Source: Escherichia phage Lw1
Direction: 5' to 3' (one strand)
Sequence record: KC801932
DNA: 64,000 nt
This document shows positions 2,271-46,574 of the stretch, piece by piece. A program made the translations under genes and the position numbers. Position 1 is the stretch's first letter. Each line of letters starts with the position of its first letter. Below the pieces are notes generated by a model. That model saw only the letters and a program-made list of their open reading frames with translations, searched no databases and was not told where the DNA came from.

Positions 2271-4084
2271 AACAAGAAATTATTATAGGTAACGTGGTTG
2301 ATGACGGCGCTGGCGATTACTTACGCCGTGGTGGTCAAAAAACAAACGCGAACTTTACCGAATTATATGAAAAGCTGGGTGACGGGGAAATCCCTCACCC
2401 AGCGGGTGCGTGGAAAACGCATTCCGCTCCTACATTGAACCCTATTTTTGGTGATTCATGGGCGCTGAATACCAGTAACAACCGTATTACTGTAAACCTC
2501 CCTAAAGGGGGCGTAAGCGATTATAACAAGGTTATTCGTCTGCGTGATGTTTGGAGTAAATGGGCGGTTAACAACGTGCGTATCGTTCCGGCAACGGGAG
2601 ACACCATCAAAGGTTCACCAACTTACAAAGAACTGTACAAAGATTTCATGGATGTTGAACTGGTTTATTGTGCTCCTGGGCGTTGGGAATACGTCGAGAA
2701 CAAACAGGTTGACAAAATAACAACTTCGGATCTGGCTACCGTAGCGAAAGAAACCTATATCGCAACTCAGGGACAGACAGACTTCCCGAATGTGTTCGGT
2801 CCTGGCAACATGTACAACGTTCGTGCTCTCGAAGTCTACTATCGTGGTAACTTGCTGTACATCGACGATAAGAACGGCTTTAATGAAGCAAACAGTGATT
2901 ACGGTTCGCCTGGGGCAACTGCGGGGCAACTCGTAGAACTGGATGGAACCAACATACGCCTTAAACGTCCCTGTAACGCTGGTGACACGCTTCAATTTGT
3001 CACCTATATGGATGGTATAGCAACATGGCGTTCGACGTATGAAGCGCATACAATGCGCGTATACAACACTGGAGACACTGAACTTGTGAGCGTACCTGGT
3101 GAAATCTGGGTTGGCGATCTGGCTAACAAGAAAGAATTCACCACTGCTGAATTTGGTATCAGTTCCCGTGTGTTGATTAACCCGAATTCATTCGAACTGC
3201 TGCTGAACGGTCGTCAGCTTGTAAAAGCAGGTGATGCGGATCTTCCTACGTTTGTTTGTGAAGGTGCGGAAGGTTATGATGAAGATAGCTGTTTGGCTAA
3301 CTCCGGTTTATGGGTTCCGTCTGGACAGGATTACAGTCTAATCTTTGTTAACTCTATTGTGACTGGGATTAAGTTTCATCAGGCACTGGAAACCCGCGAT
3401 GTGGTAACAATCCGTTGGTTCAATAACGATATCGGAACCGTAATGGAATGGGACGGCGTAGGCGGTATTAAAGAGCATACGGATAAACTGTATCTGAATA
3501 ACGAAGACGAATTGACTTTGGTTAATCAGATTGAATATACAGACTACAACAACCCGTCACAAAAAACAATGCGTAAGGTTGCAGATCCTTTCGTTGGTCG
3601 TCTGTTGGATTTGCAAGCGTTTTTCGATGTGATTCACCCTATTGGGACAATTTACGAAAACGCACACAACGACGCAAACCCAGGCGATTATATGGGATTT
3701 GGTATCTGGACACGATATGCAGAAGGGATGTTTATTGCTGGTTGGACTACCGATGCAGCAGATAGCGATTTTGGGCTGAACAATAACGATCTGGATGGTT
3801 CCGGTCAACCTACACACACATCAGGTGGTACTGGTGGTGAACGCGGCTACGAAATCAAACCGATCAACGTTCCACAAATCGAATCTACCGATAAAGTTCT
3901 GATTAAGGACGATAACGGGATCATTATCATTGGTGGTTGTCAGGTTGACCCAGATGCAACAGGACCAGGATACACTAAATACCGTGAGGATGTATTGAAA
4001 GTAAATCAGGGTAATACTACTCCTGATAAGCTGAAAACGCTCCCTCCGTATATTACTGCACATCGCTGGATAAGGGTAGCATAA
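2267..4084 (+). CDS. 10: baseplate wedge protein gp10
   Basis: 605 aa; N-terminus IGNVVDDGAGDYLRRGG and C-terminus YTKYRED...RWIRVA match recalled T4 gp10; start overlaps gp9 stop. Confidence 0.85.
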   Translation: MKQEIIIGNVVDDGAGDYLRRGGQKTNANFTELYEKLGDGEIPHPAGAWKTHSAPTLNPIFGDSWALNTSNNRITVNLPKGGVSDYNKVIRLRDVWSKWAVNNVRIVPATGDTIKGSPTYKELYKDFMDVELVYCAPGRWEYVENKQVDKITTSDLATVAKETYIATQGQTDFPNVFGPGNMYNVRALEVYYRGNLLYIDDKNGFNEANSDYGSPGATAGQLVELDGTNIRLKRPCNAGDTLQFVTYMDGIATWRSTYEAHTMRVYNTGDTELVSVPGEIWVGDLANKKEFTTAEFGISSRVLINPNSFELLLNGRQLVKAGDADLPTFVCEGAEGYDEDSCLANSGLWVPSGQDYSLIFVNSIVTGIKFHQALETRDVVTIRWFNNDIGTVMEWDGVGGIKEHTDKLYLNNEDELTLVNQIEYTDYNNPSQKTMRKVADPFVGRLLDLQAFFDVIHPIGTIYENAHNDANPGDYMGFGIWTRYAEGMFIAGWTTDAADSDFGLNNNDLDGSGQPTHTSGGTGGERGYEIKPINVPQIESTDKVLIKDDNGIIIIGGCQVDPDATGPGYTKYREDVLKVNQGNTTPDKLKTLPPYITAHRWIRVA

Positions 4085-4746
4085 TGACACAATTTATTTC
4101 AAAGACAAGGGAGGGGGCGAAAGTCCCTTCTCGTGAAGCAGACTTTTTGCAATATGAAATGGGTACGAAAGAACCCCTTATTGGTGGTAAACGTACCATC
4201 GGCGGTGCAAACGTTGATCAGCTTCGCAAAGGGATAGACTATCCCAACGTACAATCAGCAATCGATGACCTGTATTCTCTGACTCAACAGATCCCGATTA
4301 ACGGGGTTATCATGATGACAGAAGACAGTCCACCGACCGCTGTTCAGCAGGTAGAAACAATCACGTTTGATGGAACTGTACAAAATCCAGATCCAGACCA
4401 AACGAAAGCAACCGTTCATGTTTATGGCTTTCCGTTTGTATTCGATAACACAACGAACGCCTCTACGGTATGCGAAACAGTATTCAACAAGTTTACTGAA
4501 TTTGTCAACGACGAAAAATATTTCGATCTGGTTACGCGTAAAGGATTGAACGGGGAAATTCTGGAAGTTCGTTTTATTGATGCGGTTCCACATCCGGTAA
4601 CTAACGCAACAGAAAACGGGATCTCTATGGTTGGTGTAATCGACGTACAGGCGCGTTCTGGTTACGGTACGTGGTCGAAACTGGGTGAGATTGATCTTGC
4701 TGTAACTCCACCTGTTCCGATTTATTATTTCAAACGTATTGCGTAA
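4084..4746 (+). CDS. 11: baseplate wedge protein gp11
   Basis: 220 aa; C-terminal GYGTWSKLG...YYFKRIA resembles T4 gp11 C-terminus; synteny. Confidence 0.8.
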   Translation: MTQFISKTREGAKVPSREADFLQYEMGTKEPLIGGKRTIGGANVDQLRKGIDYPNVQSAIDDLYSLTQQIPINGVIMMTEDSPPTAVQQVETITFDGTVQNPDPDQTKATVHVYGFPFVFDNTTNASTVCETVFNKFTEFVNDEKYFDLVTRKGLNGEILEVRFIDAVPHPVTNATENGISMVGVIDVQARSGYGTWSKLGEIDLAVTPPVPIYYFKRIA

Positions 4747-4755
4747 GGATAACCA

Positions 4756-6147
4756 ATGAGTAACAACACAATTAACCACGTAAGCGATGCGTCAGTTTAC
4801 GTGACTTTCGATCCGGCTGGTACGCAATGGCCTTCGACGTTTACCAACGTACAGCAAGCCCTAGCCTCTATAGGCTCATGGGCGCGTGAAGATGTGGGTT
4901 TGCCTAACGCTGCCCCTGGTGTGCGTGGTATCGCTGCTATTGCTACCGAGGCGATGATTGACGCAGGTACTGACACCGAAACGATCGTTACTCCAGCGCT
5001 GTTGGCATATCGTTTACAGAATCCTCATGCGTCACAAACTGTATGGGGTTATACCCGTTATGCGACCGATGCAGAAGCAACCACAATCACTAACGATTTG
5101 GTTTCTGTAACTCCGCGTTCTGTTGATGTTATTTTCAACACCAGACAAGCAACAGAAACTGTATGGGGTTCTGCGAAACTGTCAACTACAGCACAAGCAA
5201 CATCAGGTACTGATGACACAACCGCAATGACTCCATTGAAGGTTAAACAAGCGATCTCCGCTCTGGTTCCGGTTCAATCTAACGCAACGGAAAGTTCGTT
5301 CGGTTTGGTTCAGTTGGCTACGGTTGCAGAAGTCCGCGCAGGTACTATCCGCGATGGATTTGCAATTTCACCATATACGTTTATTCGTCTGAATGCAACA
5401 GAATCCGATCTAGGTATTATTCGAATAGCTTCACAGGGTGAAGTCAACACAGGCGCTGATGATACAAAAGCTGTTACCCCGCTGAAACTGGCTAACTTGA
5501 AAGGTTCTGGTAGCGCGTTTGGTTTGGTTAAATTATCAACAGATGTAAACACAGGGCTGGCGAACACAGCGCTTTCTGCTGGTGCTAACGTGGTTCCGAG
5601 CAACCGTGATAGTGCAATTACTGGTGGTGCTCTGTATCAGGGTTCAGTTACTGGTGCTAATAAATACCAAACACATAGCGACGTTGAAGCAAATATTCCT
5701 ATTGGGTGTATGATGCTCGCGGCATTCAACTCAGATTACGGAAACCTGTTTATCGCAAACGGTCGCGCGATGAATAGAAACGCAAACCCAGAACTATTTG
5801 CACGTATTGGCTACGCATATGGCGGTAGTGGTGATATTTTCAACCTCCCAGATATGCGCGGGGTTGCTGCTCGTGGTTTCGATGCGGGACGTGGGTTAGA
5901 TCCTGGTCGCGGGTTTGGTACATATCAGGCCGATGCGTTTGCGTATCACGAACATAACCTACAGATGATTTTGCTGAACGGCGGTAATATTCCATCAAGT
6001 CAGGCTGTTTATGAACTGAAATGGGCCAAGAAAAATGACCAACGAATCTATGATTTAGATCCGAACTATAGCAAAGCTAAGGGTGTTGGTGCTAACGAAA
6101 CGCGAATGAAAAACGTTGCGGTCAACTATGTAATTCGAGTACGATAA
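4756..6147 (+). CDS. 12: short tail fibre protein gp12
   Basis: 463 aa; repeated A-x-x-G-T/A-DDT-x-A-x-TP fibre repeats; C-terminus NVAVNYVIRVR resembles gp12/gp37 C-terminal receptor-binding region; synteny. Confidence 0.8.
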   Translation: MSNNTINHVSDASVYVTFDPAGTQWPSTFTNVQQALASIGSWAREDVGLPNAAPGVRGIAAIATEAMIDAGTDTETIVTPALLAYRLQNPHASQTVWGYTRYATDAEATTITNDLVSVTPRSVDVIFNTRQATETVWGSAKLSTTAQATSGTDDTTAMTPLKVKQAISALVPVQSNATESSFGLVQLATVAEVRAGTIRDGFAISPYTFIRLNATESDLGIIRIASQGEVNTGADDTKAVTPLKLANLKGSGSAFGLVKLSTDVNTGLANTALSAGANVVPSNRDSAITGGALYQGSVTGANKYQTHSDVEANIPIGCMMLAAFNSDYGNLFIANGRAMNRNANPELFARIGYAYGGSGDIFNLPDMRGVAARGFDAGRGLDPGRGFGTYQADAFAYHEHNLQMILLNGGNIPSSQAVYELKWAKKNDQRIYDLDPNYSKAKGVGANETRMKNVAVNYVIRVR

Positions 6148-6159
6148 AGGGGTTAATCC

Positions 6160-8448
6160 ATGATTTCAAAACTTAACCCGTTACCAAAGATCCCGTTTGT
6201 TGATGGTGTCCCTTCGGACACCACACAAACCCCGATCAGTTGGATTCTTAACGGTGAGACTCTCGACGGGGCCAAAACAAAGGTCACTAGCGAGGGTTCT
6301 TTAAACAGATGCGGCGTTCTGGTTCAAAAGAACGCGGTGCAATTGGAAACAAACACCATTACGCAAACGGCAAAAATCAACGAAGTTATCGATCAAGTTA
6401 ACCTCATTAGTGAAAACCTCGCGGCTATTTCTGATGAAAGCGTGATCGAAAAACTGGATCAGGTCGTTGCTGATGTGGAAGTGTTAAAAGTCGATATGAC
6501 TGCGGTTCAAGGTTCTACCGCAAGCAATACCCTGAAAATTCAGGATCTCGATAAAGATATCGGGACATGGGATGCTACAACAGATCCAAAACACCGAACC
6601 ATTCGCAAAGATATTATTTTTCTGAAAGGGGAAATGGGCGCATATCCTGGATTTAATCAGGACGGTGACGTAGATCCTACTTCAACTGGCTCTGGAATGA
6701 AATACAAAATCATGACGAACGCGCAAGCGATTTCGATTCATGAAGGGCGTATTACCAGACTGGAAGACGATTGGGCCAACTCAGATGTAGGCCATTTAAC
6801 TGATGAAGTTACCGACTTGCGTAATGAAATGGGGCCGAAACATTTAGCAACGTTTGAATCGGTGTACGTTCGTCTGAATAAAATTGGTACGGATATCACT
6901 GGGATTAATACCGAACTGACAGAAATCAACCAATATATCGGTCGTACTGGTACAGGTGGTTCTGGAAGTATTTCTGCTCGAATGACTACGGCAGAAACGA
7001 ATATTGTTACTCTGCAAACGCAGATGAATGATTCTTCCGTTGGTGTTCTTCCTCGCGTAATTTCTCTTGAAAACCAAGTTGGGAATTCGCAGGTTCCGGG
7101 TAGTATTCGTTATGATATCAGTAATATCAAACGTGACATTAGCGACCTGAATATGGTTGTTGGTGAATCAAGCGATGAAGGGCTACGGGGCGAAATGGCT
7201 CAGGTTATGTCCGATATCGGTACAGATTCACAACCTACAAGCATTAAAGGCCGTCTGCTTAACGTAGAGAATACGCAGCGCGACGATCACCAGCGTTTGA
7301 TTGATGTCGAATCTATTGTTGGTAACACCTCAAGCGGACTTGTTGCGGCTAACATCGCAATGGGTAAAGCGGTTTATGGTGATGCAACCAGTTCAGATCC
7401 GTTCCTCAAAGACGGTATTCAGAAAACGACTCGCGATAGCAAAACTGCAATTGGTGTCAACACTACAGGTTCTGAAACTGGAATCTATAAGTTGATTTCC
7501 GATCTGACTGCTCGTGTTGCTGCTCTGGAAAGTGGTTCTGGTAGTGATCTCGAACAGCGTGTTTCCGATCTTGAAGTCAATAAAGCATCGCATCAGGACG
7601 TTACAAACGCACTGGTTCCGTATATTACTGAAACTGAGGCCGATATCAAGTACGAACCGAAGAAGATTCCGCTTGCGTTCACTCAAAACCTCGTTGGTCG
7701 AAATGATTATATCGAAGGTGATGACATTTCTCTGATGGTTACTGTATCTGGTGGTAAAGTCCCTTATGCGTACCAGTGGAAGAAAGACAACGCGAACGTA
7801 GGTACGAACGCATCAAGTTTGATGATCCAGACCATCACATCGGCTAACGCTGGCGTGTATAAGGTTGAAGTAACTGACGCAGATAACACGGTTATCACTT
7901 CTAACGAATTGACAATTGCTGTTTATCCGGTTCCTCAGTTCGATACTAACCTGGCTGATAAATCAGTGGTTGACGGTGATCCTCTGACTCTGGAAGTTGT
8001 GTATAGCGGCGGTAAACCTTCGTACACTTACGAGTGGTTCAAAGATAACTCTGTTATCTCTGGGGCAACATCAGCAACATTTACCAAATCTGCGGTTACA
8101 AGTGCCGATGCTGGTGAATACTATGTTTCTGTGACTGACTCGATGAACAACCAAAATGATTCAGTGAAAGCAAATGTGACGGTAACACCACGTCCTGCAC
8201 TGGCATTCACTACGGATCTGAGTTCTACTAAATCATATAGCACAGGTGCTGATATGGACCTTGCTGTTGTCGTAACTGGTGGTAAAACACCATATACGTA
8301 CAAATGGTTTAAAGACACTGCGGAAATTTCCGGTCAGACAGGCGCAAGCCTTACCACTGTAGCAGAAGATGGAGTGTATAAAGTCGAAGTGACTGATGCA
8401 CTAACGACTAAAATCACATCAACTGAATGCACGGTAACTGTTGCATAA
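6160..8448 (+). CDS. wac: fibritin (whisker) with three C-terminal Ig-like repeats
   Basis: 762 aa; N-terminus LPKIPFVDGVP...ISWILNGE...SEGSLNR matches recalled T4 wac N-terminus; long serine/threonine-rich coiled-coil segments; last 260 aa are three tandem 85-aa repeats (GGK-x-PY-x-Y-x-W-x-KD ... G-x-Y-x-V-x-VTD). Confidence 0.75.
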   Translation: MISKLNPLPKIPFVDGVPSDTTQTPISWILNGETLDGAKTKVTSEGSLNRCGVLVQKNAVQLETNTITQTAKINEVIDQVNLISENLAAISDESVIEKLDQVVADVEVLKVDMTAVQGSTASNTLKIQDLDKDIGTWDATTDPKHRTIRKDIIFLKGEMGAYPGFNQDGDVDPTSTGSGMKYKIMTNAQAISIHEGRITRLEDDWANSDVGHLTDEVTDLRNEMGPKHLATFESVYVRLNKIGTDITGINTELTEINQYIGRTGTGGSGSISARMTTAETNIVTLQTQMNDSSVGVLPRVISLENQVGNSQVPGSIRYDISNIKRDISDLNMVVGESSDEGLRGEMAQVMSDIGTDSQPTSIKGRLLNVENTQRDDHQRLIDVESIVGNTSSGLVAANIAMGKAVYGDATSSDPFLKDGIQKTTRDSKTAIGVNTTGSETGIYKLISDLTARVAALESGSGSDLEQRVSDLEVNKASHQDVTNALVPYITETEADIKYEPKKIPLAFTQNLVGRNDYIEGDDISLMVTVSGGKVPYAYQWKKDNANVGTNASSLMIQTITSANAGVYKVEVTDADNTVITSNELTIAVYPVPQFDTNLADKSVVDGDPLTLEVVYSGGKPSYTYEWFKDNSVISGATSATFTKSAVTSADAGEYYVSVTDSMNNQNDSVKANVTVTPRPALAFTTDLSSTKSYSTGADMDLAVVVTGGKTPYTYKWFKDTAEISGQTGASLTTVAEDGVYKVEVTDALTTKITSTECTVTVA

Positions 8449-38938: not shown

Positions 38939-39211
38939 ATGTTTAAAATTTATGGCTATATCCCTTCCGTATACAATTGCGCTCCGTGCCTGAACTCGAA
39001 ACGACTGCTGGACGCAAAGAAACATGAATATGAATTCGTATCTGTTGCTGATTCCAAAGGCGAAGACGGCAAACCGATCCTGAATGAAAAAGTGATTGAC
39101 GAACTCGAAGGTCTTTTGGGTACTCGCAAAATGACCATGCCTCAGATTTTCCACGATGGGAAACACATTGGCGGGTTCGACCAACTTCGTGAGTATGTCC
39201 GCACCCTGTGA
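38939..39211 (+). CDS. nrdC: glutaredoxin/thioredoxin NrdC
   Basis: 90 aa; MFK.YGY...C.YC..AKRLL and TMPQ.F..G.HIGGFDQLREY match recalled T4 NrdC. Confidence 0.8.
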   Translation: MFKIYGYIPSVYNCAPCLNSKRLLDAKKHEYEFVSVADSKGEDGKPILNEKVIDELEGLLGTRKMTMPQIFHDGKHIGGFDQLREYVRTL

Positions 39212-39243
39212 TAAATAATGACACCTTACTGAATGGTGTTATT

Positions 39244-39726
39244 ATGCTGACGAAACGAATTACCAAAAAAGATTACCCAACAATCAAGCAAGCTCTCTTT
39301 GACAAACAAGGGGGCTGCTGTGCTCTCTGTAAACGTCCTCTTGAGGGTGATATAGAGAAACATCACCTTGACCATGACCATGCTTTAGACGGCGAAAACG
39401 CCGGACGTGTGCGCGGGCTTCTGTGTAACCTATGCAACGGTACAGAAGGTATTGTAAAGCACAAATTCAATCGATCCGGTCTGGTTTCCCGTGATGTTTA
39501 TTACATCGCCTGGTTAGAGAATCTGCTTGCATATCTCAAGCAAGACTATTCCGAAAACCGTATTCATGACAAATTCATACCAGATAAGGTAAAATGGTTT
39601 TCAAGACTTACCAAACCTGATATGATTGCCGAAATGGTTTCTATGGGCTTCGAGTACGCCGACAAAGACGAACGCAAAGCCTTAACCGCAAAATATAGAA
39701 AGCAATTAATGAAGGCAACCAAATGA
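39244..39726 (+). CDS. 49: recombination endonuclease VII (gp49)
   Basis: 160 aa from ATG 39244; HLDHDH.L.G..AG.VRGLLCNLCN..EG..KHKFNRSGL and WLENLL.YLK.DY matches recalled T4 gp49; the track ORF starts at GTG 39208. Confidence 0.82.
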   Translation: MLTKRITKKDYPTIKQALFDKQGGCCALCKRPLEGDIEKHHLDHDHALDGENAGRVRGLLCNLCNGTEGIVKHKFNRSGLVSRDVYYIAWLENLLAYLKQDYSENRIHDKFIPDKVKWFSRLTKPDMIAEMVSMGFEYADKDERKALTAKYRKQLMKATK

Positions 39727-41852
39727 AAGTAGAAAAGCGCGACAATACAATTGTCGATTTCGACAAAGAAAAAATCCGTAATGCAGTGTATAAAGCTGGA
39801 GGAACATCAGACGATGCTGATGCGGCTGTAGAATCTGCTATCGGTTCGTATCACCTGGATGGTAAACCAAACACAATTGCACGTATTCAAAGTGCTGTTG
39901 AAGAATCCTTGATGAAAACGAACCCAGCGGTCGCCCGTTCATACATTGAGTATCGCCACGATCGCGACATTGCCCGTGAACAGAAAAGCAAGCTGTTCTC
40001 TGATATCTCCGGCATGGTGAACCTGTCCAACAAAGAGATCACCAACGAGAACGCGAACAAAGATGCAAGGGTATTCCCGACACAGCGCGATTTGCTGGCG
40101 GGTATCGTAGCGAAGCATTTCGCCCGTAATCATATCCTCCCGAAACATATCGTAGAAGCGCATGATTCCGGTGACATCCACTATCACGATCTGGACTATA
40201 GCCCGTTCACCCCTTACACTAACTGCTGTCTGGTTGACCTGAAAGGTATGCTGGAGAACGGTTTTAAAATGGGTAACGCGGACATTGAACCGCCTAAATC
40301 GATCGGTGTTGCTACCGCTCTCATGGCGCAGATCACCGCACAGATTGCCTCTCACCAGTACGGCGGGACAACCTTTGCGAACGTGGATAAAGTGCTGGCT
40401 CCATACGTCGAAATGACATTCTTCAAACATCTGCACGATGCTGAACATTACGGTATCGAACACTATAATGATTATGTGTATGCGATTGAAAAGACTGAAA
40501 AAGATGTGTATGATGCGTTCCAGTCCTATGAGTATGAAGTAAACACCCTACATACTGCCAACGGACAAACCCCGTTTGTTACCATCACTTTCGGTACTGG
40601 TACGAGCGATTATGAACGCATGATCCAGAAAGCGATCCTGAAAAACCGTATTCGCGGCCTTGGTAAAGAGGGTATTACTCCGGTATTCCCGAAACTGGTT
40701 ATGTTCATGGAAAAAGGAATTAACCTTGATCCAGAGGATCAAAACTATGACATCAAACAACTTGCCCTGGAATGTGCTTCGAAACGCATGTACCCAGATA
40801 TCATTAGCGCATCTAATAACCGCCGTATCACTGGTTCTAGCGTTCCTGTATCTCCTATGGGTTGTCGCAGTTTCCTTAGCGTGTGGCATGATGATAACGG
40901 TAATGAAATTCTGGATGGACGTAATAACCTTGGTGTGGTGACAATCAACCTCCCGCGCATTGCGATCGAAGCTGAAGCACAGGAAGATGAAGACGCACAC
41001 GACGCATTCTGGCGCATCCTTGATGAACGTCTGGATCTGTGCTTTGAAGCCCTGATGACTCGTATCGAAAGCCTACGCGGTGTTAAAGCCAGTGTTGCGC
41101 CGATCCTGTACACAGAAGGTGCTTTTGGTGTCCGACTGAAACCGGATGATGAAATTCTGGAACTGTTCAAAAATGGGCGTAGCTCTATCAGCCTTGGTTA
41201 TATCGGACTACATGAAACACTGTTGATGTTCGGATCTGGACAACACCCATTCGATCGGGTTGGCTCCCAGAATTTCGGTAAACATGTTCTGGAACACCTG
41301 AAAAACAAAACCGAACGTTGGAAAGCCCAAACAGGCTTTGGATTCAGCCTGTATTCAACCCCTGCTGAATCTCTCTGTCACCGTTTCTGCAAACTTGATT
41401 ATCAGAAGTTCGGAAGCATCAAAGGGATCACTGATAAGGGTTGGTATACAAACAGTTTCCATCTTGACGTTGACCGCAAGGTAACACCGTTCGAGAAAAT
41501 CGACTATGAAGCCGATTATCATTACATTGCGACTGCTGGACATATCAGCTATGTAGAATTTCCTGATATGAAAAACAACCTGGAAGCACTTGAAAAAGTC
41601 TGGGATTACGCGATGGAAAAACTGGACTACTTCGGAACTAACCTTCCGGTCGATAAGTGCTTTGTATGTGGCTCTGATGACGAGTTCACGCCTACAGAAG
41701 ACGGTTTCCACTGTAAGCACTGCGGTAATCACGATCCGGCTAAAATGAGCGTCACGCGCCGTACATGCGGTTATTTGGGTGCTCCTGCTGTTCGTGGATT
41801 CAACGAAGGTAAGAACAAAGAAATGATGCACCGAACTAAGCATCAAAATTAA
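39723..41852 (+). CDS. nrdD: anaerobic ribonucleoside-triphosphate reductase NrdD
   Basis: 709 aa; N-terminal ATP-cone-like segment; C-terminal CxxC...C..C zinc site and glycyl-radical motif RTCGYLG; no intron interruption evident. Confidence 0.9.
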   Translation: MKVEKRDNTIVDFDKEKIRNAVYKAGGTSDDADAAVESAIGSYHLDGKPNTIARIQSAVEESLMKTNPAVARSYIEYRHDRDIAREQKSKLFSDISGMVNLSNKEITNENANKDARVFPTQRDLLAGIVAKHFARNHILPKHIVEAHDSGDIHYHDLDYSPFTPYTNCCLVDLKGMLENGFKMGNADIEPPKSIGVATALMAQITAQIASHQYGGTTFANVDKVLAPYVEMTFFKHLHDAEHYGIEHYNDYVYAIEKTEKDVYDAFQSYEYEVNTLHTANGQTPFVTITFGTGTSDYERMIQKAILKNRIRGLGKEGITPVFPKLVMFMEKGINLDPEDQNYDIKQLALECASKRMYPDIISASNNRRITGSSVPVSPMGCRSFLSVWHDDNGNEILDGRNNLGVVTINLPRIAIEAEAQEDEDAHDAFWRILDERLDLCFEALMTRIESLRGVKASVAPILYTEGAFGVRLKPDDEILELFKNGRSSISLGYIGLHETLLMFGSGQHPFDRVGSQNFGKHVLEHLKNKTERWKAQTGFGFSLYSTPAESLCHRFCKLDYQKFGSIKGITDKGWYTNSFHLDVDRKVTPFEKIDYEADYHYIATAGHISYVEFPDMKNNLEALEKVWDYAMEKLDYFGTNLPVDKCFVCGSDDEFTPTEDGFHCKHCGNHDPAKMSVTRRTCGYLGAPAVRGFNEGKNKEMMHRTKHQN

Positions 41853-41856
41853 TCAA

Positions 41857-41887
41857 AAAGCCCCTTGCGAAAGTGAGGGGCTTTTGT
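41857..41887 (+). terminator. rho-independent terminator after nrdD
   Basis: GCCCCT-tgcgaaagtg-AGGGGC followed by TTTTGTT. Confidence 0.6.
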
Positions 41888-41923
41888 TATATTGCACATA
41901 CCTAAACTATGAGGTATTGAAAA

Positions 41924-42406
41924 ATGATGTACTGGACAAAAGATTATTTTGAATTTCGTGATGAAGAAAGTTTTGGGACGGTGTACCGCAACTTAGCTTT
42001 GCGTGGTAGTCCTCTGTCGCCTAATCAACTATCATCTGTCGTGTTTCCAATCAAGGTAACGCACTGTGATCGGAAAGGTGTCAATGGGATCGTTGATGCC
42101 AATGGCACAACCTGGTATTCCGAAGATTCATATCTGTTTGACAACGAGGATCGCGGATTCTTTAAAAAGTTTGTCGCGCTTAAACCTGCTGTTGAAAAAG
42201 CAGACGCACAACAACTGCTGGACTGTTCGCATCTTCTGGGACGAATCTACGTAGATGGTAAACTGGTGACGAAACCTGGTGATCTGGAAAAATTCTTGCG
42301 TAAGGCGCGGGAAACTACCCTGAAAGACACCGAAAAACGACACGTCACAGCAACCGCCGATCTACAGCGTTTATCTGGTGAACTGAAAGTTCTGTGGGGT
42401 GAATGA
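41924..42406 (+). CDS. hypothetical protein
   Basis: 160 aa; TGAGGT 8 nt upstream of the ATG; first gene of the nrdD-nrdG insertion. Confidence 0.5.
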   Translation: MMYWTKDYFEFRDEESFGTVYRNLALRGSPLSPNQLSSVVFPIKVTHCDRKGVNGIVDANGTTWYSEDSYLFDNEDRGFFKKFVALKPAVEKADAQQLLDCSHLLGRIYVDGKLVTKPGDLEKFLRKARETTLKDTEKRHVTATADLQRLSGELKVLWGE

Positions 42407-42906
42407 TGTTCGAGAAAATCCTTGATACTCTGTTTCCCTCCCGTGTACGCGCACGGGTAGAGCGAGAAAACCGACTCGAAGAAATCCGTTTTAACAAGTT
42501 CCTTGAGGACAAGAAGAAGCGCGAAGACGAGAAACACCCAAACGCGGTAATGGCTGAGGGTGTATCGAAATGTTCTGTCGGGCGGTTCTGGGTTGAAAAG
42601 GATTATCTTGATCTGATAGGTGCAATTGCACCTGGTGTTACGCTGGAGGACTTATCCCGTGCAACAGGACGTTCGTATACAGGATGTATAAATCGTCTCC
42701 GTATGTTGTCTATAGTGGTGCGTGGTGCGCATTTTGGCTATCGTGACGTTATCCTTCCGGTGATCCCAGTAAGCAGATTAAAAATTCACCTTGCAAACGG
42801 AAAAAGAATTGACTTAACCGAAGAACTATGTAGAATAGGCTATATCAGAGAGGGGAAATTCGTGAAAGCCCCTGAATGGTTCATCAAACAATTTGAAATC
42901 AAATAA
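42403..42906 (+). CDS. hypothetical protein
   Basis: 167 aa; start overlaps the preceding stop. Confidence 0.5.
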   Translation: MMFEKILDTLFPSRVRARVERENRLEEIRFNKFLEDKKKREDEKHPNAVMAEGVSKCSVGRFWVEKDYLDLIGAIAPGVTLEDLSRATGRSYTGCINRLRMLSIVVRGAHFGYRDVILPVIPVSRLKIHLANGKRIDLTEELCRIGYIREGKFVKAPEWFIKQFEIK

Positions 42907-42915
42907 GGTAATATT

Positions 42916-43512
42916 ATGTTTAAGAAACTGATGTCTTTCATTAACAATAAAGCAGAAACCGCCATCGAAAAGAACACTTCCCCAGAAGACGCATGGCGTA
43001 GTGCTGGACGTATTCTGATCAAAGAGATCGACCGTCTGCGACATACTCGCATTACCGCTGCACACGAAATCAAGAAGCTGGAGAAGAAGGTCGCGGAACA
43101 TAAAGCGCACCATGAGAACAAAGAAGCAGAAATCAAAAAACTGCTGGCGGCTAATCAGGAAGTTTCGAACAGCCATTACATCCTGGCGCTGCAACATCGC
43201 AATATCTGGCAAGGGTTGCAGGACAAGATTGAAGATCTTCGCAGCATGAATGTTCAGATCGACCTTTCGGTTGTCGAACTGGATAAGAAAATGGCTGAGG
43301 TTAAAATCAACCTTGACATTATCGAACTGAACAAAGAAACCGAAAACATGGGCCTGACAATACCGGAAGATGTGATCGCCAGCGTGGGACATACCACTGT
43401 GAACGTCGATACAATCGTAACGAAAATTGATGTGTTGCTGGGTGGCAAGAACGCCGCTTCCGTAACCTCTGCCGATGTCAGCGCGTATATCGATGCCCTA
43501 AAAGCAAACTAA
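42916..43512 (+). CDS. PspA/IM30-like coiled-coil protein (putative)
   Basis: 198 aa, heptad-rich; N-terminal 45 aa (MFKKLMSFINNKAETAIEKNTSPEDAWRSAGRILIKEIDRLR) align in pattern with E. coli PspA N-terminus ([44 protein letters not shown]). Confidence 0.45.
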   Translation: MFKKLMSFINNKAETAIEKNTSPEDAWRSAGRILIKEIDRLRHTRITAAHEIKKLEKKVAEHKAHHENKEAEIKKLLAANQEVSNSHYILALQHRNIWQGLQDKIEDLRSMNVQIDLSVVELDKKMAEVKINLDIIELNKETENMGLTIPEDVIASVGHTTVNVDTIVTKIDVLLGGKNAASVTSADVSAYIDALKAN

Positions 43513-43517
43513 GAGGA

Positions 43518-43538
43518 AGGGGCGAAAGCCCCTTTTTT
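43518..43538 (+). terminator. rho-independent terminator
   Basis: AGGGGC-gaaa-GCCCCT followed by TTTTTT. Confidence 0.75.
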
Positions 43539-43542
43539 CATT

Positions 43543-44430
43543 ATGTATAGTATTGAGAAAGATTATGGCGGTGGTTGCTGGGTAGTAGATCATGTTACTC
43601 TTGTAAAAGAAAAACTTCCTGATAACTGGGAATTTTTATCTACATCCACGAAAAATCGTATTGCTGATACTGTTTACCGTACAGCAATGGAACGACATAA
43701 AAATGATATTCATCGACGAAAAGCACAGATGTTGAAATCTCGTAATATCGATGTTAGTCATTTGGATATAATAGGAACTCAACCGATGACGCTTTCAAGC
43801 ATCACCAACGCTTACGTGAATGGCGAAACCCGCGAGGAAGAAAAAATGATGTGGGAACCTGGATTATCAGAACCGGATAATGGATATAAAAAGCAAATGC
43901 AATCTCTTGATTTTAATGAGAAAATCAATAATTTGCTTAATTATTGCGCATCGAGCGTTTCGTCGTGGGAATATCATGGCCCGATTGATATAGCAGGTTT
44001 TACTGCTCGTGGTGTTGAGGTTTTTAACTTCGAAAAACTGATGAATGGTATCATGTCTTCTGACTATATCGTTTCTGTGAATGTCCCTGTTGTTGCGACA
44101 TCCCGTTTTTCATCTCCTTGTAACGTTGTTACGGATAAACTTAATATTGTTGCTGTCGATAATAGCGATGTTAATATTAGCGATGGTGATAGAATCGGAA
44201 GCATCCTGGTTGCCCTAGAACTGACTTGCGAAGACGGCTATACTTGTAGTATGTTTGTTGTTTCTTGTGTTGATGATGCCGTGAACTCAGTGTTTACTAA
44301 TTTCAGCAAGAAATTAAATGCTCTGCATATTGAAAAATTTATACACAAATGTAAAAAGAACGTGATGGGGAATTATGATCCGTCATTAACATACACGAAA
44401 ATTGATGAAAACATGGTGGACTTATGCTGA
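43543..44430 (+). CDS. hypothetical protein
   Basis: 295 aa ORF; no recognised family. Confidence 0.5.
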   Translation: MYSIEKDYGGGCWVVDHVTLVKEKLPDNWEFLSTSTKNRIADTVYRTAMERHKNDIHRRKAQMLKSRNIDVSHLDIIGTQPMTLSSITNAYVNGETREEEKMMWEPGLSEPDNGYKKQMQSLDFNEKINNLLNYCASSVSSWEYHGPIDIAGFTARGVEVFNFEKLMNGIMSSDYIVSVNVPVVATSRFSSPCNVVTDKLNIVAVDNSDVNISDGDRIGSILVALELTCEDGYTCSMFVVSCVDDAVNSVFTNFSKKLNALHIEKFIHKCKKNVMGNYDPSLTYTKIDENMVDLC

Positions 44431-44714
44431 TTAATACGGCGCAATGTAAAGCCCTGAACTTTCTGATTCATGAACTGGTTGAATACGATATTCCTTTTGA
44501 GTTCGTCGATCCGATAAACTCAGAATACAACTATACGTTTTTCTGGTCGTCTGGTGATGACAGTATCGACGCGGTGGATAAAATCGTTAGAAGTGCTCTA
44601 CGTAATAATAGCATGGTGATGATCGGAAGCGTAAACGCTAACACCTGGAACGGTGCTGATGCGTATTTCATCGGCTATCGGACTATGTTTGATACGGTAG
44701 TAGAAATATGTTGA
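44424..44714 (+). CDS. hypothetical protein
   Basis: 96 aa ORF overlapping the preceding stop. Confidence 0.45.
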   Translation: MLINTAQCKALNFLIHELVEYDIPFEFVDPINSEYNYTFFWSSGDDSIDAVDKIVRSALRNNSMVMIGSVNANTWNGADAYFIGYRTMFDTVVEIC

Positions 44715-44739
44715 CAGCGGATTCATGAACGCGTACTAT
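44711..44739 (+). promoter_or_regulatory. sigma70-like promoter TTGACA-N17-TACTAT followed by a 5' hairpin
   Basis: Hexamers at 44711-44716 and 44734-44739; hairpin GCCCCTGTAG...CTATAGGGGC at 44740-44767 directly downstream. Confidence 0.5.
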
Positions 44740-44773
44740 GCCCCTGTAGACAACAAACTATAGGGGCTAAATC

Positions 44774-45010
44774 ATGAAAATCAAAAATACTGCTACTGAA
44801 AATCTTTGCAACGAAATCGCGGTGACTTACTGGAAAGAAGGTCACGCAAAAGCAATGAAGGATTTTCAACACTGGAAAGAAGGTCACGCAAAAGCAATGA
44901 AGGATTTTCAACCGTGGTGTGATACCCAGAAGTTAGCCAAATGGGAATACATCGTAATCGTGGAACGGATCAAAGAACTGATCCTTGAGAAGAAAGGCAC
45001 TATAAAATGA
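44774..45010 (+). CDS. hypothetical small protein containing an in-frame 14-codon tandem duplication
   Basis: 78 aa; WKEGHAKAMKDFQH / WKEGHAKAMKDFQP encoded by the 42-bp tandem repeat. Confidence 0.45.
   Translation: MKIKNTATENLCNEIAVTYWKEGHAKAMKDFQHWKEGHAKAMKDFQPWCDTQKLAKWEYIVIVERIKELILEKKGTIK
44830..44913 (+). repeat. perfect-over-40-nt tandem duplication, period 42 bp, 2 copies
   Basis: ctggaaagaaggtcacgcaaaagcaatgaaggattttcaa at 44830-44869 and again at 44872-44911. Confidence 0.9.
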
Positions 45011-45068
45011 TTCAACTGAAATTAGACACCTATACGCTGAACAATCTGTTCCCAGAGGCAAAAGGCTG

Positions 45069-45560
45069 ATGAACTTTGACCGCATCTACAACATGGATGT
45101 GGTCAACGGTAAAGGAATCCGTGTAGTGTTGTTTGTCACTGGCTGCAATCATAAATGCGAAGGTTGCTACAACAAATCAACATGGAATCCCCGCAACGGT
45201 ACACCATACACCGAAGAGACTGAAAACGAGTTGATTAAACTCCTTTCAAATCCTTATGTGGACGGATTGACGCTTACAGGTGGCGATCCGTTTTACCGCA
45301 CCAATCATCCAACACTGTTAAACCTGCTCCAGCGCGTTCGTGCTGAGTTGCCGGATAAGAACGTATGGGTTTGGACAGGCTACACACTGGACGCCTTACA
45401 AAGCGATACAGAACGTTCTAAGCTACTTCCGTTTATTGATGTTCTTATCGACGGGAAGTATGAAAAAGATTTGCCGACTAAGAAACCGTTTCGCGGTTCT
45501 GATAATCAGCGATTGATTGAGTTTCAGAAAGATTCAATAGAAATTAAAAATATCGCTTGA
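45069..45560 (+). CDS. nrdG: anaerobic ribonucleotide reductase activating protein NrdG
   Basis: 163 aa; radical-SAM C-x3-C-x2-C (CNHKCEGC) and GLTLTGGDP motifs. Confidence 0.85.
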   Translation: MNFDRIYNMDVVNGKGIRVVLFVTGCNHKCEGCYNKSTWNPRNGTPYTEETENELIKLLSNPYVDGLTLTGGDPFYRTNHPTLLNLLQRVRAELPDKNVWVWTGYTLDALQSDTERSKLLPFIDVLIDGKYEKDLPTKKPFRGSDNQRLIEFQKDSIEIKNIA

Positions 45561-45626: not shown

Positions 45627-46574
45627 ATGATCCTGAATTTCAAAACCCGTAATGAAGCCCGTAAGTATTGCTGGAAGTGGAACATTCCGCCGAAAAACAT
45701 CAAAAAGCATAACGATGGTTCAAACCATCCGTGGCGCGTAACAACCGAAGAAACCATGTTCAAAGTAGGACGTGATTATAAACTGGTTGATGTTGAAGGT
45801 TTTACCGAAGGTGGTAAAAATCGCGCAAATAAAGTACAGGCAGAACAAATCAATGCTCATTTGAATGGCGTGATCTCCCTGGTAAGCAAAGACGGCGACA
45901 AGTTCCGTTTTAAATCTCCGGCTAACGTAGCAATGGACGTTGTGCGTCCGTGGGAAGCGCGTTTCTTCAAAGAAGTTGCATCAGTTGTCAACGCAAAGCC
46001 GAAGAAAGCCGCTGCTGCTAAAAGACCAACGAAAGTAACACCAGTGAAGCCTGAAATCAAACCTGCTCCGGTTGAAGATCTGGACGCGGTGCTTGATGGT
46101 GGTGTTAACCTCGCTCCGGTTGAAGAAAAAACGTTTAGCGAAGCATGGCCTGGTATTTTTGTAACCAATACACCTTACGTTCTGGTTGACGAAGATGGTT
46201 TCATTGCTGCACATCACGGCGATGCAAATAAAATCATTGTCGATTACATGAAATCGAACAATAATGTTCTCGTGTTCGACTTTTTTGACCAAGACGGTGA
46301 CGCTATTATAAAAACCAACGGGCAACGTCTACCGTATGTTATGAAACGTGAGCGTAAATTCTTCCGCGAACTGGGTACTGGTAAAGCTCCAGAAACTCCA
46401 GCAGTACAGGCGGTTGATATCGAAGCTCAGAAACGTGATCAAGAAATCATCGCTGCTGCTCAGAAAGTAGAAGACGCACTGGCAGAACACCAGAAAGCAA
46501 TCGAAATCGTACAGAAAGCCGCTCGCGCTGTTCGCGAAGCTGCACAAGAACTTGCGCTCCTGGCACGTAAGTAA
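45627..46574 (+). CDS. hypothetical protein with lysine/alanine/proline-rich linker
   Basis: 315 aa; central low-complexity AKPKKAAAAKRPTKVTPVKPEIKPAPV; no recognised family. Confidence 0.5.
   Translation: MILNFKTRNEARKYCWKWNIPPKNIKKHNDGSNHPWRVTTEETMFKVGRDYKLVDVEGFTEGGKNRANKVQAEQINAHLNGVISLVSKDGDKFRFKSPANVAMDVVRPWEARFFKEVASVVNAKPKKAAAAKRPTKVTPVKPEIKPAPVEDLDAVLDGGVNLAPVEEKTFSEAWPGIFVTNTPYVLVDEDGFIAAHHGDANKIIVDYMKSNNNVLVFDFFDQDGDAIIKTNGQRLPYVMKRERKFFRELGTGKAPETPAVQAVDIEAQKRDQEIIAAAQKVEDALAEHQKAIEIVQKAARAVREAAQELALLARK

What the first reader, a model, noticed from the sequence alone, without database searches (positions are those of the whole stretch)
41924..45010. Six-ORF insertion separating nrdD from nrdG
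In T4, nrdD and nrdG are close neighbours. Here they are separated by about 3.1 kb carrying six ORFs of unknown function (41924-42406, 42403-42906, the PspA-like 42916-43512, 43543-44430, 44424-44714, 44774-45010). The block has an internal terminator (43518-43538) and an internal sigma70-like promoter (44711-44739) followed by a GC hairpin. This is the architecture of a hyperplastic accessory module, where T4-like phages tend to carry host-interaction and anti-defence genes.
Basis: partly seen in the sequence, partly recalled or inferred. Interest (0 to 1): 0.5.

Follow-up and report, generated by a model that had tools for sequence, protein, structure and literature searches.

The report
Conserved variable gene block between nrdD/nrdG
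The six genes between the two anaerobic ribonucleotide-reductase genes of this T4-like phage (Escherichia phage Lw1) are not a private insertion but an old, genus-wide variable region, whose one interpretable gene is the counterpart of T4 gene e.6, an uncharacterised phage version of the bacterial membrane-repair protein PspA/Vipp1.

Summary
nrdD (39723-41852) and nrdG (45069-45560) are 3.2 kb apart, with six real ORFs, two stable terminator hairpins and a conserved early promoter.

The window is phage Lw1 (Pseudotevenvirus). ORF3-ORF6 lie at this position in all ~61 sequenced genus members. ORF1, 2, 5, 6 and 7 also sit between nrdD and nrdG in Slopekvirus KP15 and phage JC221. So the block is an inherited hyperplastic region, not a recent insertion.

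It is plastic:
- Small ORFs come and go.
- Homing endonucleases replace ORF1-2 or ORF7 in some relatives.
- ORF4 is hypervariable (43% identity or less to any relative).
- Lw1 keeps only a 20-codon remnant of ORF7, deleted between 11-12 bp direct repeats.
- Lw1 carries a private 42-bp duplication in ORF6.

The lineage-specific part is ORF3+ORF4. ORF3 is the ortholog of T4 e.6 (1,176 phage genomes) and a remote PspA/Vipp1 homolog by profile and predicted fold. ORF4 has no recognisable fold and may correspond to T4 e.5.

The internal promoter heads a translationally coupled ORF6-(ORF7)-nrdG unit. No anti-defence evidence was found.

The parts
41856..41893 (+). Composite element after nrdD: an intrinsic-terminator hairpin (41856-41885) overlapped by a promoter-like site (TTGCGA-17-TATATT with an upstream TG). 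The SD and ATG of ORF1 follow.
   Evidence: dG -21 kcal/mol, z -5.6. Nearly identical in 8 genus relatives, and kept with compensatory stem changes in KP15, where it is annotated as terminator plus putative middle promoter.
41924..42406 (+). ORF1, 160 aa, phrog_8646, function unknown. Present in Pseudotevenvirus and Slopekvirus. Three allelic classes (97-98%, 67-69%, 57% identity).
   Evidence: No PDB or Pfam relative. Absent from leE.
42403..42906 (+). ORF2, 167 aa, phrog_10107, function unknown. Its start overlaps the ORF1 stop (ATGA).
   Evidence: No PDB or Pfam relative.
42916..43512 (+). ORF3, 198 aa, ortholog of T4 gene e.6 (phrog_1203). Remote PspA/Vipp1 (ESCRT-III superfamily) homolog with a family-specific C-terminal third.
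   Evidence: tblastn finds 1,176 phage records including T4-type e.6 at ~30% identity over the full length. The family profile hits Vipp1/PspA PDB chains in register, residues 1-145, E 1.9e-5. Seven of 37 members hit PF04012, best E 8.9e-10. The AF2 model has helices 2-17, 23-78 and 85-144. The Foldseek top 12 PDB hits are all Vipp1/PspA.
43513..43538 (+). Intrinsic-terminator hairpin GGGGCGAAAGCCCC plus T6 between ORF3 and ORF4. It marks the left edge of the hypervariable segment and lies between a GAGGA motif and the ORF4 AUG.
   Evidence: Conserved in 8 relatives with loop variants. Nucleotide identity to every relative drops right after it.
43543..44430 (+). ORF4, 295 aa (Lw1_gp252), phrog_10543. 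The body is hypervariable and the C-terminal ~35 aa are invariant (EKFIHxCKKNV..YDPSL.YTKID). Restricted to Pseudotevenvirus, plus a distant homolog that follows the e.6 homolog in Pectobacterium phage POP12.
   Evidence: only 16 clusters among 5.8 billion proteins. Best relative 43% identity, others 25%. POP12_124 hhalign 95%, E 2e-8. AF2 pLDDT 60.6 and no fold match.
44424..44714 (+). ORF5, 96 aa, phrog_7412, overlaps the ORF4 stop. Variable (51-85% identity). Homologs are KP15_223 and JC221_207.
44711..44767 (+). Early-type promoter GTTGACA-17-TACTAT (44711-44739), immediately followed by a 10-bp-stem hairpin (44740-44767). The 3' arm of the hairpin contains the ORF6 Shine-Dalgarno sequence. 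There is no T-run.
   Evidence: 90-95% conserved across the genus between divergent flanks. The G at -33 fits the RB43 early-promoter consensus (PMC1524935).
44774..45010 (+). ORF6, 78 aa, phrog_5072. It is 64 aa in relatives. Lw1 carries a perfect in-frame 42-bp tandem duplication at 44829-44912.
45007..45069 (+). 20-codon remnant of ORF7 (phrog_3806, 176 aa in relatives). It results from an in-frame 468-bp deletion between two copies of (T)CTGTTCCCAGA. The start overlaps the ORF6 stop (ATGA) and the stop overlaps the nrdG start (TGATG).
39723..41852 (+). nrdD, left border gene. It is itself mosaic.
45069..45560 (+). nrdG, right border gene and last cistron of the ORF6-(ORF7)-nrdG unit.

Best explanation
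The nrdD-nrdG spacer of this phage (Escherichia phage Lw1, genus Pseudotevenvirus) is the local version of an old, vertically inherited hyperplastic region of the RB43-type phages. It is not an insertion private to this genome.

Shown:
- The common frame nrdD-ORF1-ORF2-ORF5-ORF6-ORF7-nrdG is shared with Slopekvirus KP15 and phage JC221.
- Pseudotevenvirus additionally carries ORF3 + terminator + ORF4 between ORF2 and ORF5.
- The region is remodelled by allelic replacement through recombination, by homing-endonuclease replacement, by direct-repeat deletion (ORF7 in Lw1 and about half of the genus) and by slippage (the 42-bp duplication in ORF6).

Inferred expression plan, three units:
1. The terminator/promoter composite after nrdD drives ORF1-ORF2-ORF3, ending at the terminator at 43538.
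2. ORF4-ORF5 have no promoter of their own and are reached only by read-through of that terminator.
3. A conserved early promoter at 44711 drives ORF6-(ORF7 remnant)-nrdG, which are translationally coupled. The -10 box abuts the 5' arm of a hairpin that sequesters the ORF6 SD. Read-through transcripts should therefore be poorly translated and promoter-proximal transcripts well translated, as for T4 genes e, soc and 49.

Inferred function:
- ORF3, the T4 e.6 ortholog, is a PspA/Vipp1-type protein. It most likely binds the host inner membrane through its N-terminal helix and oligomerises. This would keep the membrane sealed and energised during infection, either by controlling premature leakage or lysis or by blunting membrane-damaging host responses. 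I put this at roughly 35%.
- ORF4 is its hypervariable partner, positionally equivalent to T4 e.5. It carries a constant C-terminal tail and a fast-changing body that may contact a variable host component.
- ORF1, 2, 5 and 6 remain without inferable activity.
For: - Identity: ORF4 is 100% identical to Lw1_gp252. The nearest DNA relatives are all Pseudotevenvirus.
- Synteny: annotated regions of 10 relatives, KP15 and JC221.
- Distribution counts: 61-64 records for ORF4 and ORF5, 173 for ORF6, 376 for ORF7 and 1,176 for ORF3.
- ORF5 homologs in KP15 and JC221: hhalign 97%.
- Mosaicism and the ORF4 identity trough. G+C also dips to 0.37-0.40 there.
- ORF7 deletion junction and direct repeats.
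- Duplication in ORF6.
- Regulatory elements are conserved and stable.
- T4 precedents for SD-sequestering leaders: PMC3014915. RB43 early-promoter consensus: PMC1524935.
- ORF3 as PspA/Vipp1-like.
- e.6 is a single copy per genome.
- The e.6 + ORF4-homolog pair recurs next to nrdG in POP12.
- ORF4 and the genes that follow e.6 in T4, Jiaodavirus, Bragavirus, Biquartavirus, Kanagawavirus and Muldoonvirus share a C-terminal [FY][IV]xxC[KR] motif.
Against: - No transcript data: promoter, terminator read-through and start site are all predictions.
- The window protein itself scores below Pfam's PspA gathering cut-off (20.9 vs 33.9 bits). Composition bias in the HMMER hits is high. A profile search of 1.84 billion proteins returned only ~200-aa phage-type relatives and no cellular PspA.
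- The ORF3 alignment stops at residue ~145. The C-terminal third, which is the most conserved part of the family, has no counterpart in PspA and is modelled with low confidence.
- The N-terminal helix is only moderately amphipathic (muH 0.46 against 0.61 for Vipp1).
- The ORF4-e.5 link rests on 16-17 aligned columns (hhalign probability 42-58%). Single-sequence comparisons fail and the BFVD fold search did not recover e.5-type proteins clearly.
- The direction of the ORF3-ORF4 event (gain in Pseudotevenvirus or loss in Slopekvirus/JC221) was not resolved.
Confidence: 0.7

Rival explanations
1. The block is an accessory module of horizontally acquired host-interaction or anti-defence genes, with its own promoter and terminator, inserted between nrdD and nrdG.
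For: - The region is variable among close relatives and is visited by homing endonucleases.
- ORF4 and ORF5 are hypervariable and have lower G+C, a pattern often seen in counter-defence genes.
- T4 lacks the block.
Against: - ORF3-ORF6 are present at this site in all ~61 genus members, and five of the genes also sit between nrdD and nrdG in KP15 and JC221.
- ORF3 is a pan-T4-like gene.
- The promoter serves nrdG.
- No match to any known defence-related or anti-defence-like family or fold.
Confidence: 0.2
2. ORF3's resemblance to PspA/Vipp1 is a coiled-coil artefact. It would then be a generic helical-hairpin protein unrelated to membrane repair.
For: - The window protein falls below the Pfam threshold.
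- Single-sequence PDB search is non-significant.
- High bias terms in the profile hits.
- No cellular PspA among the 44 relatives found in 1.84 billion proteins.
- Foldseek rmsd values are large.
Against: - The profile alignment runs from residue 1 to ~145 of both proteins, with the same helix boundaries.
- One family member reaches E 8.9e-10 on PF04012.
- The 12 best PDB fold hits are exclusively Vipp1/PspA, ahead of SMC or Rad50 coiled coils.
- Independent annotators reached the same label.
Confidence: 0.2
3. The genes are auxiliary factors of anaerobic nucleotide reduction, kept next to nrdD/nrdG because they work with the enzyme.
For: - ORF6-ORF7-nrdG are translationally coupled and conserved across two genera and JC221.
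- ORF7 homologs in Jiaodavirus sit next to nrdC in the nrdC-49-nrdD neighbourhood.
Against: - ORF7 is deleted or replaced in about half of the genus.
- T4 runs NrdDG without any of these genes next to it.
- ORF3 sits far from the nrd genes in most T4-like phages.
- No redox, radical-SAM or nucleotide-binding signature in any ORF.
Confidence: 0.07

Closest known systems
Hyperplastic regions (HPRs) of T4-like genomes and their promoter/stem-loop composites (PeSLs; Arbiol et al. 2010, Comeau et al. 2014, PMC4122927)
   Same: A run of small, mostly unknown early-type ORFs lies between conserved core genes. Gene content differs among close relatives. Conserved stem-loop and sigma70-type promoter motifs sit at the edges of the variable segments. 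The element after nrdD has the PeSL order: stem-loop, promoter, SD, ATG.
   Different: The block's position and most of its genes are stable across a whole genus and beyond. The 44711 element has the hairpin downstream of the promoter, not upstream. Neither motif is repeated elsewhere in the 64-kb window. The one clear deletion used a coding direct repeat, not a PeSL.
PspA / IM30 / Vipp1 family (PF04012; bacterial branch of the ESCRT-III superfamily, PMC8281802)
   Same: ORF3 and its family (T4 e.6) align in register with Vipp1/PspA over residues 1-145. The predicted helices are an N-terminal helix followed by a long alpha1-alpha2/3 hairpin. The best structural matches are Vipp1 and PspA polymers.
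   Different: - Shorter: ~198 aa against 222-267 aa.
- The C-terminal third is a family-specific conserved segment (GL..PEDV...VDT...GG) with no counterpart, in place of recognisable alpha4-alpha5.
- Encoded by a lytic phage with no pspBC/F or liaI-type partner.
- The window protein is below the Pfam threshold.
- No biochemical data exist.
T4 e.6-e.5 gene pair in the tRNA-e cluster
   Same: ORF3 is the e.6 ortholog (~30% identity, full length). In eight lineages e.6 is followed directly by a 160-320 aa soluble, highly divergent protein ending in the [FY][IV]xxC[KR] motif. ORF4 fits that description.
   Different: In Lw1 the pair lies between nrdD and nrdG instead of near the lysozyme and tRNA genes. 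No 2-TM e.4-like gene follows it. ORF4-e.5 homology is not statistically secure.
SD-sequestering leaders of T4 genes e, soc, 49 and I-TevI (PMC3014915)
   Same: A promoter lies immediately upstream of, or inside, the 5' arm of a hairpin whose 3' arm holds the ribosome-binding site. Long read-through transcripts would therefore be translationally silent.
   Different: Here the promoter is an early (sigma70-type) one, not a late one, and the arrangement is untested.

Membership tests
PspA/IM30/Vipp1 (PF04012) | Score above the Pfam gathering threshold | tested here: not met
   The window ORF3 scores 20.9 bits against a cut-off of 33.9 (E 3e-4). At family level, 7 of 37 diverse members match at E<=0.01, best 8.9e-10.
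PspA/IM30/Vipp1 (PF04012) | In-register homology to solved PspA/Vipp1 from the N-terminus through the alpha1-alpha3 hairpin | tested here: met
   The family profile A5 hits Synechocystis and Nostoc Vipp1 and E. coli PspA, residues 1-145 to 1-146, E 1.9e-5 to 2.6e-3.
PspA/IM30/Vipp1 (PF04012) | Fold: N-terminal helix alpha0 plus a long helical hairpin | tested here: met
   The AF2 model has helices 2-17, 23-78 and 85-144, with pLDDT above 90 over most of residues 40-120. The Foldseek top 12 PDB hits are all Vipp1/PspA, best E 2.5e-4.
PspA/IM30/Vipp1 (PF04012) | alpha4-alpha5 region that mediates ESCRT-III-type polymerisation | tested here: inconclusive
   Alignments end near residue 145. Residues 146-198 are conserved within the family but modelled as three short helices at pLDDT 45-68.
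PspA/IM30/Vipp1 (PF04012) | Amphipathic N-terminal membrane-binding helix | tested here: inconclusive
   muH is 0.46 (shuffle p 0.017) against 0.61 for Vipp1. Other family members range from 0.31 to 0.61.
PspA/IM30/Vipp1 (PF04012) | Membrane binding and ring or rod assembly | not testable with these tools
   Needs purified protein, liposomes and EM.
PeSL (promoter-early stem-loop) elements | Stem-loop immediately upstream of a sigma70-like early promoter, followed by SD and start codon | tested here: inconclusive
   Met by the 41856-41893 element, although its promoter scores only 9 of 12. Not met by the 44711-44767 element, where the hairpin is downstream of the promoter (definition from PMC4122927).
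PeSL (promoter-early stem-loop) elements | Family of similar copies dispersed through the variable regions of the genome | tested here: not met
   The hairpin sequence is unique in the 64-kb window even with 3 mismatches allowed. Only one + strand match exists to TTGAC-N18-TANNAT. The rest of the genome was not available.
PeSL (promoter-early stem-loop) elements | Located at borders of indels or replacements between close relatives | tested here: met
   The 77-aa ORF0 indel abuts the nrdD element. The hypervariable ORF4-ORF5 segment lies between the 43513 stem-loop and the 44711 promoter.
Hyperplastic region of T4-like genomes | Set between conserved core genes, with gene content differing among close relatives | tested here: met
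T4 e.6 family (phrog_1203) | Full-length sequence homology to T4 e.6 | tested here: met
   phrog_1203 at E 2e-71. tblastn to T4-type e.6 over residues 2-196, ~30% identity, E ~5e-12. Alignment.
T4 e.5 family (phrog_2607 and relatives) | Sequence or profile homology to e.5-type proteins | tested here: inconclusive
   hhalign probability 42-58%, E 1e-4 to 2.6e-4 over 16-17 C-terminal columns. T4 e.5 alone gives 1.5%. The shared motif occurs in only 2 unrelated ORFs (one antisense nrdD frame, seen in two close relatives) out of 328 ORFs scanned. Position after e.6 is met.
Known defence / anti-defence proteins | Match to a described family | tested here: not met
   PADLOC gave only coiled-coil noise. 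Pfam and PHROGs gave no function. No dedicated anti-defence library was available.

The most novel reading that the evidence does not exclude
T4 e.6 (here ORF3) and the hypervariable gene that follows it (T4 e.5-type, here ORF4) may form a phage-encoded PSP-like membrane-maintenance pair, carried by more than a thousand T4-like phages. In this reading a PspA/Vipp1-type polymer protects the infected cell's inner membrane. Its fast-evolving partner adapts it to variable host targets, for example membrane-depolarising abortive-infection effectors or the lysis clock.
Probability: 0.2. Interest if true: 0.65.

Novelty: new member of a known kind. Interest (0 to 1): 0.35.

Why it matters
As a genome feature the block is ordinary: one more hyperplastic region of a T4-like phage, in a genome that is already published (Lw1) with these ORFs annotated as hypothetical.

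Three points are still useful:
- It gives a clean natural experiment on dispensability. ORF7 is deleted in about half of the genus and ORF1-2 are replaced in some phages.
- It identifies ORF4 as a divergence hot spot with a frozen C-terminal tail.
- It links the uncharacterised pan-T4-like gene e.6 to the PspA/Vipp1/ESCRT-III membrane-remodelling family. I found no paper on this. Only stray automated labels exist ('shock protein A').

A phage-encoded PspA homolog in the best-studied lytic phage would be directly testable in T4 genetics. It would bear on how phages manage host membrane integrity.

Tried and rejected
- ORF1 and ORF2: family profiles against PDB, and members against Pfam, gave nothing significant. 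The HTH-like stretch in ORF2 (E 0.7) and the S4 hit in ORF1 (E 0.068) are rejected as noise.
- ORF6: the DUF446 hit (E 0.009, below cut-off) is rejected.
- PADLOC hits of ORF3 to JetC and LmuB are rejected as coiled-coil noise.
- T4 e.5 as a direct homolog of ORF4: single-sequence hhalign failed. Only the C-terminal motif survives.
- PeSL repeat family: searched the window for further copies of the promoter/hairpin and found none.
- Literature searches for T4 e.6, phage-encoded PspA and ESCRT-III in phages found nothing relevant. Miller et al. 2003 (PMC150520) is not held.
- The word-indexed homolog search for ORF3 returned only close relatives. The exhaustive search was needed to reach T4-type members.
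- I did not resolve where, or whether, Slopekvirus carries e.6. The polarity of the ORF3-ORF4 event is therefore open.

Full report
**What is there.** On the + strand the window reads nrdC (38939-39211), endonuclease VII (39208-39726), nrdD (39723-41852), six ORFs, then nrdG (45069-45560). Each matches one PHROG family over its full length: phrog_8646, 10107, 1203, 10543, 7412 and 5072, all 'unknown function'. They are therefore genes and not chance frames. In T4 only the homing endonuclease mobC separates nrdD from nrdG, so the contrast with T4 is real.

**Which genome.** ORF4 is 100% identical to Lw1_gp252 of Escherichia phage Lw1, on a 176,227-bp contig. Lw1 is a published RB43-group phage (PMC3861415). 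Lw1 itself is not in the phage collection searched. The nearest DNA relatives there are all Pseudotevenvirus, at 84-91% identity.

**Not a private insertion.** I fetched annotated nrdD-nrdG regions of GuL6, Dev_CS701, RB43 (two records), IME-CF2, Miller, leB, KPN-11i, Banach and leE. All have the same genes in the same order. tblastn counts in 50,697 phage records were:

| ORF | Records | Where |
|---|---|---|
| ORF4 | 61 | Pseudotevenvirus only |
| ORF5 | 64 | Pseudotevenvirus, plus a weak JC221 hit |
| ORF3 at 60% identity or more | 61 | Pseudotevenvirus |
| ORF6 | 173 | also Slopekvirus |
| ORF1 | 147 | also Slopekvirus |
| ORF2 | 90 | also Slopekvirus |

In Slopekvirus KP15 and Yersinia phage JC221 the order is nrdD, small ORFs, ORF1, ORF2, ORF5-like, ORF6, ORF7, nrdG. 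KP15_223 and JC221_207 are ORF5 homologs (hhalign 97%). The frame of the block therefore predates the genus. What Pseudotevenvirus has in addition is ORF3 + stem-loop + ORF4 between ORF2 and ORF5. I could not decide whether this was a gain in Pseudotevenvirus or a loss in the others.

**But plastic.**
- A 77-aa ORF after nrdD (phrog_12911) is present in RB43, GuL6 and KP15 and absent from Lw1.
- An ~80-aa ORF between ORF1 and ORF2 is present in most relatives and absent from Lw1, Dev_CS701 and GuL6.
- In leE a Seg-like homing endonuclease replaces ORF1-ORF2 and another replaces ORF7. leB has one at the ORF7 position.
- Protein identities to relatives are mosaic. ORF1 falls into three classes (97-98%, 67-69%, 57%). 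ORF3 is 84% or 78% identical. ORF5 ranges from 85% to 51%.
- A 100-bp sliding comparison shows patches of exchange even inside nrdD. It also shows a trough at 43523-44323 (33-67% identity) against every relative. The trough coincides with lower G+C of 0.37-0.40.

**ORF7 remnant and ORF6 duplication.**
- Relatives have a 176-aa ORF7 (phrog_3806) whose start overlaps the ORF6 stop and whose stop overlaps the nrdG start.
- Lw1 has only MIQLKLDTYTLNNLFPEAKG* at 45007-45069.
- Full-length ORF7 carries (T)CTGTTCCCAGA twice, 468 bp apart. The Lw1 sequence is exactly the fusion of the two copies.
- The same junction is present in IME-CF2, Miller, KPN-11i and Banach. By length it is also present in several more.
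- About 32 of 61 genus genomes keep ORF7. ORF7 is therefore dispensable, and the deletion preserves the ATGA and TGATG coupling.
- ORF6 carries a perfect in-frame 42-bp tandem duplication at 44829-44912, giving 78 aa against 64 aa in every relative seen.

**Regulatory elements.** Three hairpins are far more stable than shuffled controls: -21, -16.9 and -18 kcal/mol, with z scores of -5.6, -4.1 and -5.7.
- *Hairpin 1 (41856-41885)* is a terminator after nrdD. It is overlapped by TTGCGA-17-TATATT with an upstream TG. It is nearly invariant in the genus and kept with compensatory changes in KP15, where it is annotated as terminator plus putative middle promoter. Its order matches the PeSL pattern of stem-loop, promoter, SD, ATG (PMC4122927).
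- *Hairpin 2 (43513-43538)* is a terminator with a T6 run, conserved with loop variants. The ORF4 AUG follows 4 nt after the T-run and no promoter intervenes. ORF4-ORF5 therefore depend on read-through. A GAGGA motif lies 24 nt before the AUG, or 10 nt if the hairpin is discounted. This recalls T4 genes 25 and 38 (PMC3014915). That reading is inference.
- *Hairpin 3 (44740-44767)* follows the promoter GTTGACA-17-TACTAT (44711-44739). This is the only + strand match to that pattern in the window. It is 90-95% conserved between diverged flanks, and its G at -33 fits the RB43 early-promoter consensus (PMC1524935). The hairpin has no T-run, so it is not a terminator. Its 3' arm contains the ORF6 SD, and the -10 box abuts its 5' arm. 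A start about 7 nt downstream would fall inside the stem. Transcripts from this promoter could not form the hairpin, while read-through transcripts could. This is the logic described for T4 e, soc, 49 and I-TevI (PMC3014915). It is inference, not shown.
- Because ORF6, the ORF7 remnant and nrdG overlap end to start, this promoter most likely serves nrdG.

**ORF3.**
- tblastn finds 1,176 phage records, one copy each. They include T4-type e.6 at ~30% identity over the full length and some Ackermannviridae.
- In T4, Jiaodavirus, Bragavirus, Karamvirus, Biquartavirus, Kanagawavirus and Muldoonvirus the gene lies in the tRNA-e.x-nudE-lysozyme cluster, not near the nrd genes.
- The window protein alone gives PF04012 at E 3e-4, below threshold, and nothing significant against PDB.
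- An exhaustive profile search of 1.84 billion representatives found only 44 clusters. All full-length ones are ~200 aa, and no cellular PspA was among them.
- A profile of 37 diverse members hits Synechocystis and Nostoc Vipp1 and E. coli PspA in register, residues 1-145, at E 1.9e-5 to 2.6e-3. Seven members hit PF04012, best E 8.9e-10.
- The AF2 model (pLDDT 74.6, above 90 in the hairpin) has helices 2-17, 23-78 and 85-144. Its 12 best Foldseek matches in PDB are all Vipp1 or PspA.
- Residues 146-198 hold the family's only invariant column (G146) and other conserved motifs (VDT, C-terminal Tyr). They have no counterpart in PspA and are poorly modelled.
- The N-terminal helix is moderately amphipathic.
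- I conclude that ORF3/e.6 is a remote, shortened PspA/Vipp1-type protein. Its membrane role is inferred from family knowledge (PMC8281802). I found no paper on it. Only automated labels such as 'shock protein A' exist.

**ORF4.**
- Only 16 clusters exist among 5.8 billion proteins.
- The body is hypervariable, with three allelic classes at 25-43% identity. Two parts are invariant: the motif KMMWEPGLSEP and the C-terminal EKFIHxCKKNV..YDPSL.YTKID.
- The model is of low confidence and no fold match was found.
- In Pectobacterium phage POP12 the e.6 homolog is followed by a 300-aa ORF4 homolog (hhalign 95%, E 2e-8; phrog_10543 at E 9e-11), three small ORFs upstream of nrdG.
- In six other genera the gene right after e.6 is a divergent 160-320 aa soluble protein ending in [FY][IV]xxC[KR]. 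These include T4 e.5 (phrog_2607) and linked PHROGs. ORF4 ends the same way.
- Among 328 ORFs of at least 100 aa in all DNA held, 25 carry the motif near the C-terminus. Only two of these are unrelated, both the same antisense nrdD frame in two close relatives.
- Profile-profile comparison aligns only those 16-17 columns (probability 42-58%, E about 1e-4). ORF4 as an e.5 equivalent is plausible but not established.

**ORF1, ORF2, ORF5, ORF6.** No informative match in Pfam, PADLOC or PDB profiles. None has a predicted transmembrane segment.

**Verdict.** It is wrong that it is an insertion of accessory cargo. The region is an inherited, genus-wide block whose internal promoter probably belongs to nrdG and whose one interpretable gene is a relocated pan-T4-like gene. 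The most interesting lead is the e.6 family as a phage PspA/Vipp1 homolog with a hypervariable neighbour.

Noticed in passing
window 44829-44912: Perfect in-frame 42-bp tandem duplication (2.0 copies, 100% match) inside ORF6. It repeats WKEGHAKAMKDFQ(H/P). It is absent from every relative examined (64 aa there). It could be a recent slippage event or a 454 assembly artefact.
   Followed up: partly
window 45007-45069; L002 5807-6337: 20-codon remnant of a 176-aa gene (phrog_3806). It was created by deletion between two copies of (T)CTGTTCCCAGA lying 468 bp apart. The same junction occurs in several species of the genus, so the event is either recurrent or spread by recombination.
   Followed up: yes
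window 39823-39922, 40423-40522, 41223-41322: Short patches inside nrdD where identity to different relatives switches abruptly (for example 98% to Dev_CS701 against 63-69% to the others). This is mosaic recombination inside a core gene.
   Followed up: no
L012 (T4 e.3, e.5), L016 (four ORFs of phiP4-3), L018, L020-L022, L014; window 44330-44430: A C-terminal motif [FY][IV]xxC[KR], often preceded by E/D-x, recurs in many small unknown ORFs clustered around e.6 in T4-like phages. Examples are T4 e.3 and e.5 and four neighbouring paralogs in Proteus phage phiP4-3. It looks like an unrecognised paralogous family or a shared tail.
   Followed up: partly
window 43513-43545: The ORF4 AUG follows a terminator hairpin directly, with a GAGGA motif on the far side of the hairpin (24 nt away, or 10 nt if the stem is discounted). 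This resembles the split ribosome-binding sites of T4 genes 25 and 38. In the MFE fold, however, the GAGGA pairs with the T-run.
   Followed up: no
L003 (NC_007023, RB43) versus L009 (HE858210, RB43-GVA): In the RefSeq RB43 record the ORF1, ORF3 and ORF4 homologs are broken into fragments, one of them labelled 'e.6'. In the resequenced RB43-GVA they are intact. The cause is probably sequencing errors in the older record.
   Followed up: no
L008 (leB) 6098-6544, L013 (leE) 4064-4915 and 7085-7726: Homing endonuclease genes occupy the ORF1-ORF2 and ORF7 positions next to nrdD/nrdG in some Cronobacter phages, echoing mobC between nrdD and nrdG in T4. In leB nrdG is annotated only as a misc_feature.
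   Followed up: partly
window 45627-46574: The 315-aa gene after nrdG is also mosaic: 98-99% identical to Miller and IME-CF2 over the part held, 61-75% to other genus members and 36% to KP15. The variable region therefore continues beyond nrdG.
   Followed up: no
L023 (LilPanda) 3501-4013: In Jiaodavirus the ORF7 homolog sits immediately after nrdC (overlapping start) in the nrdC-49-nrdD neighbourhood. The family is loosely tied to the nrd region in several genera.
   Followed up: no
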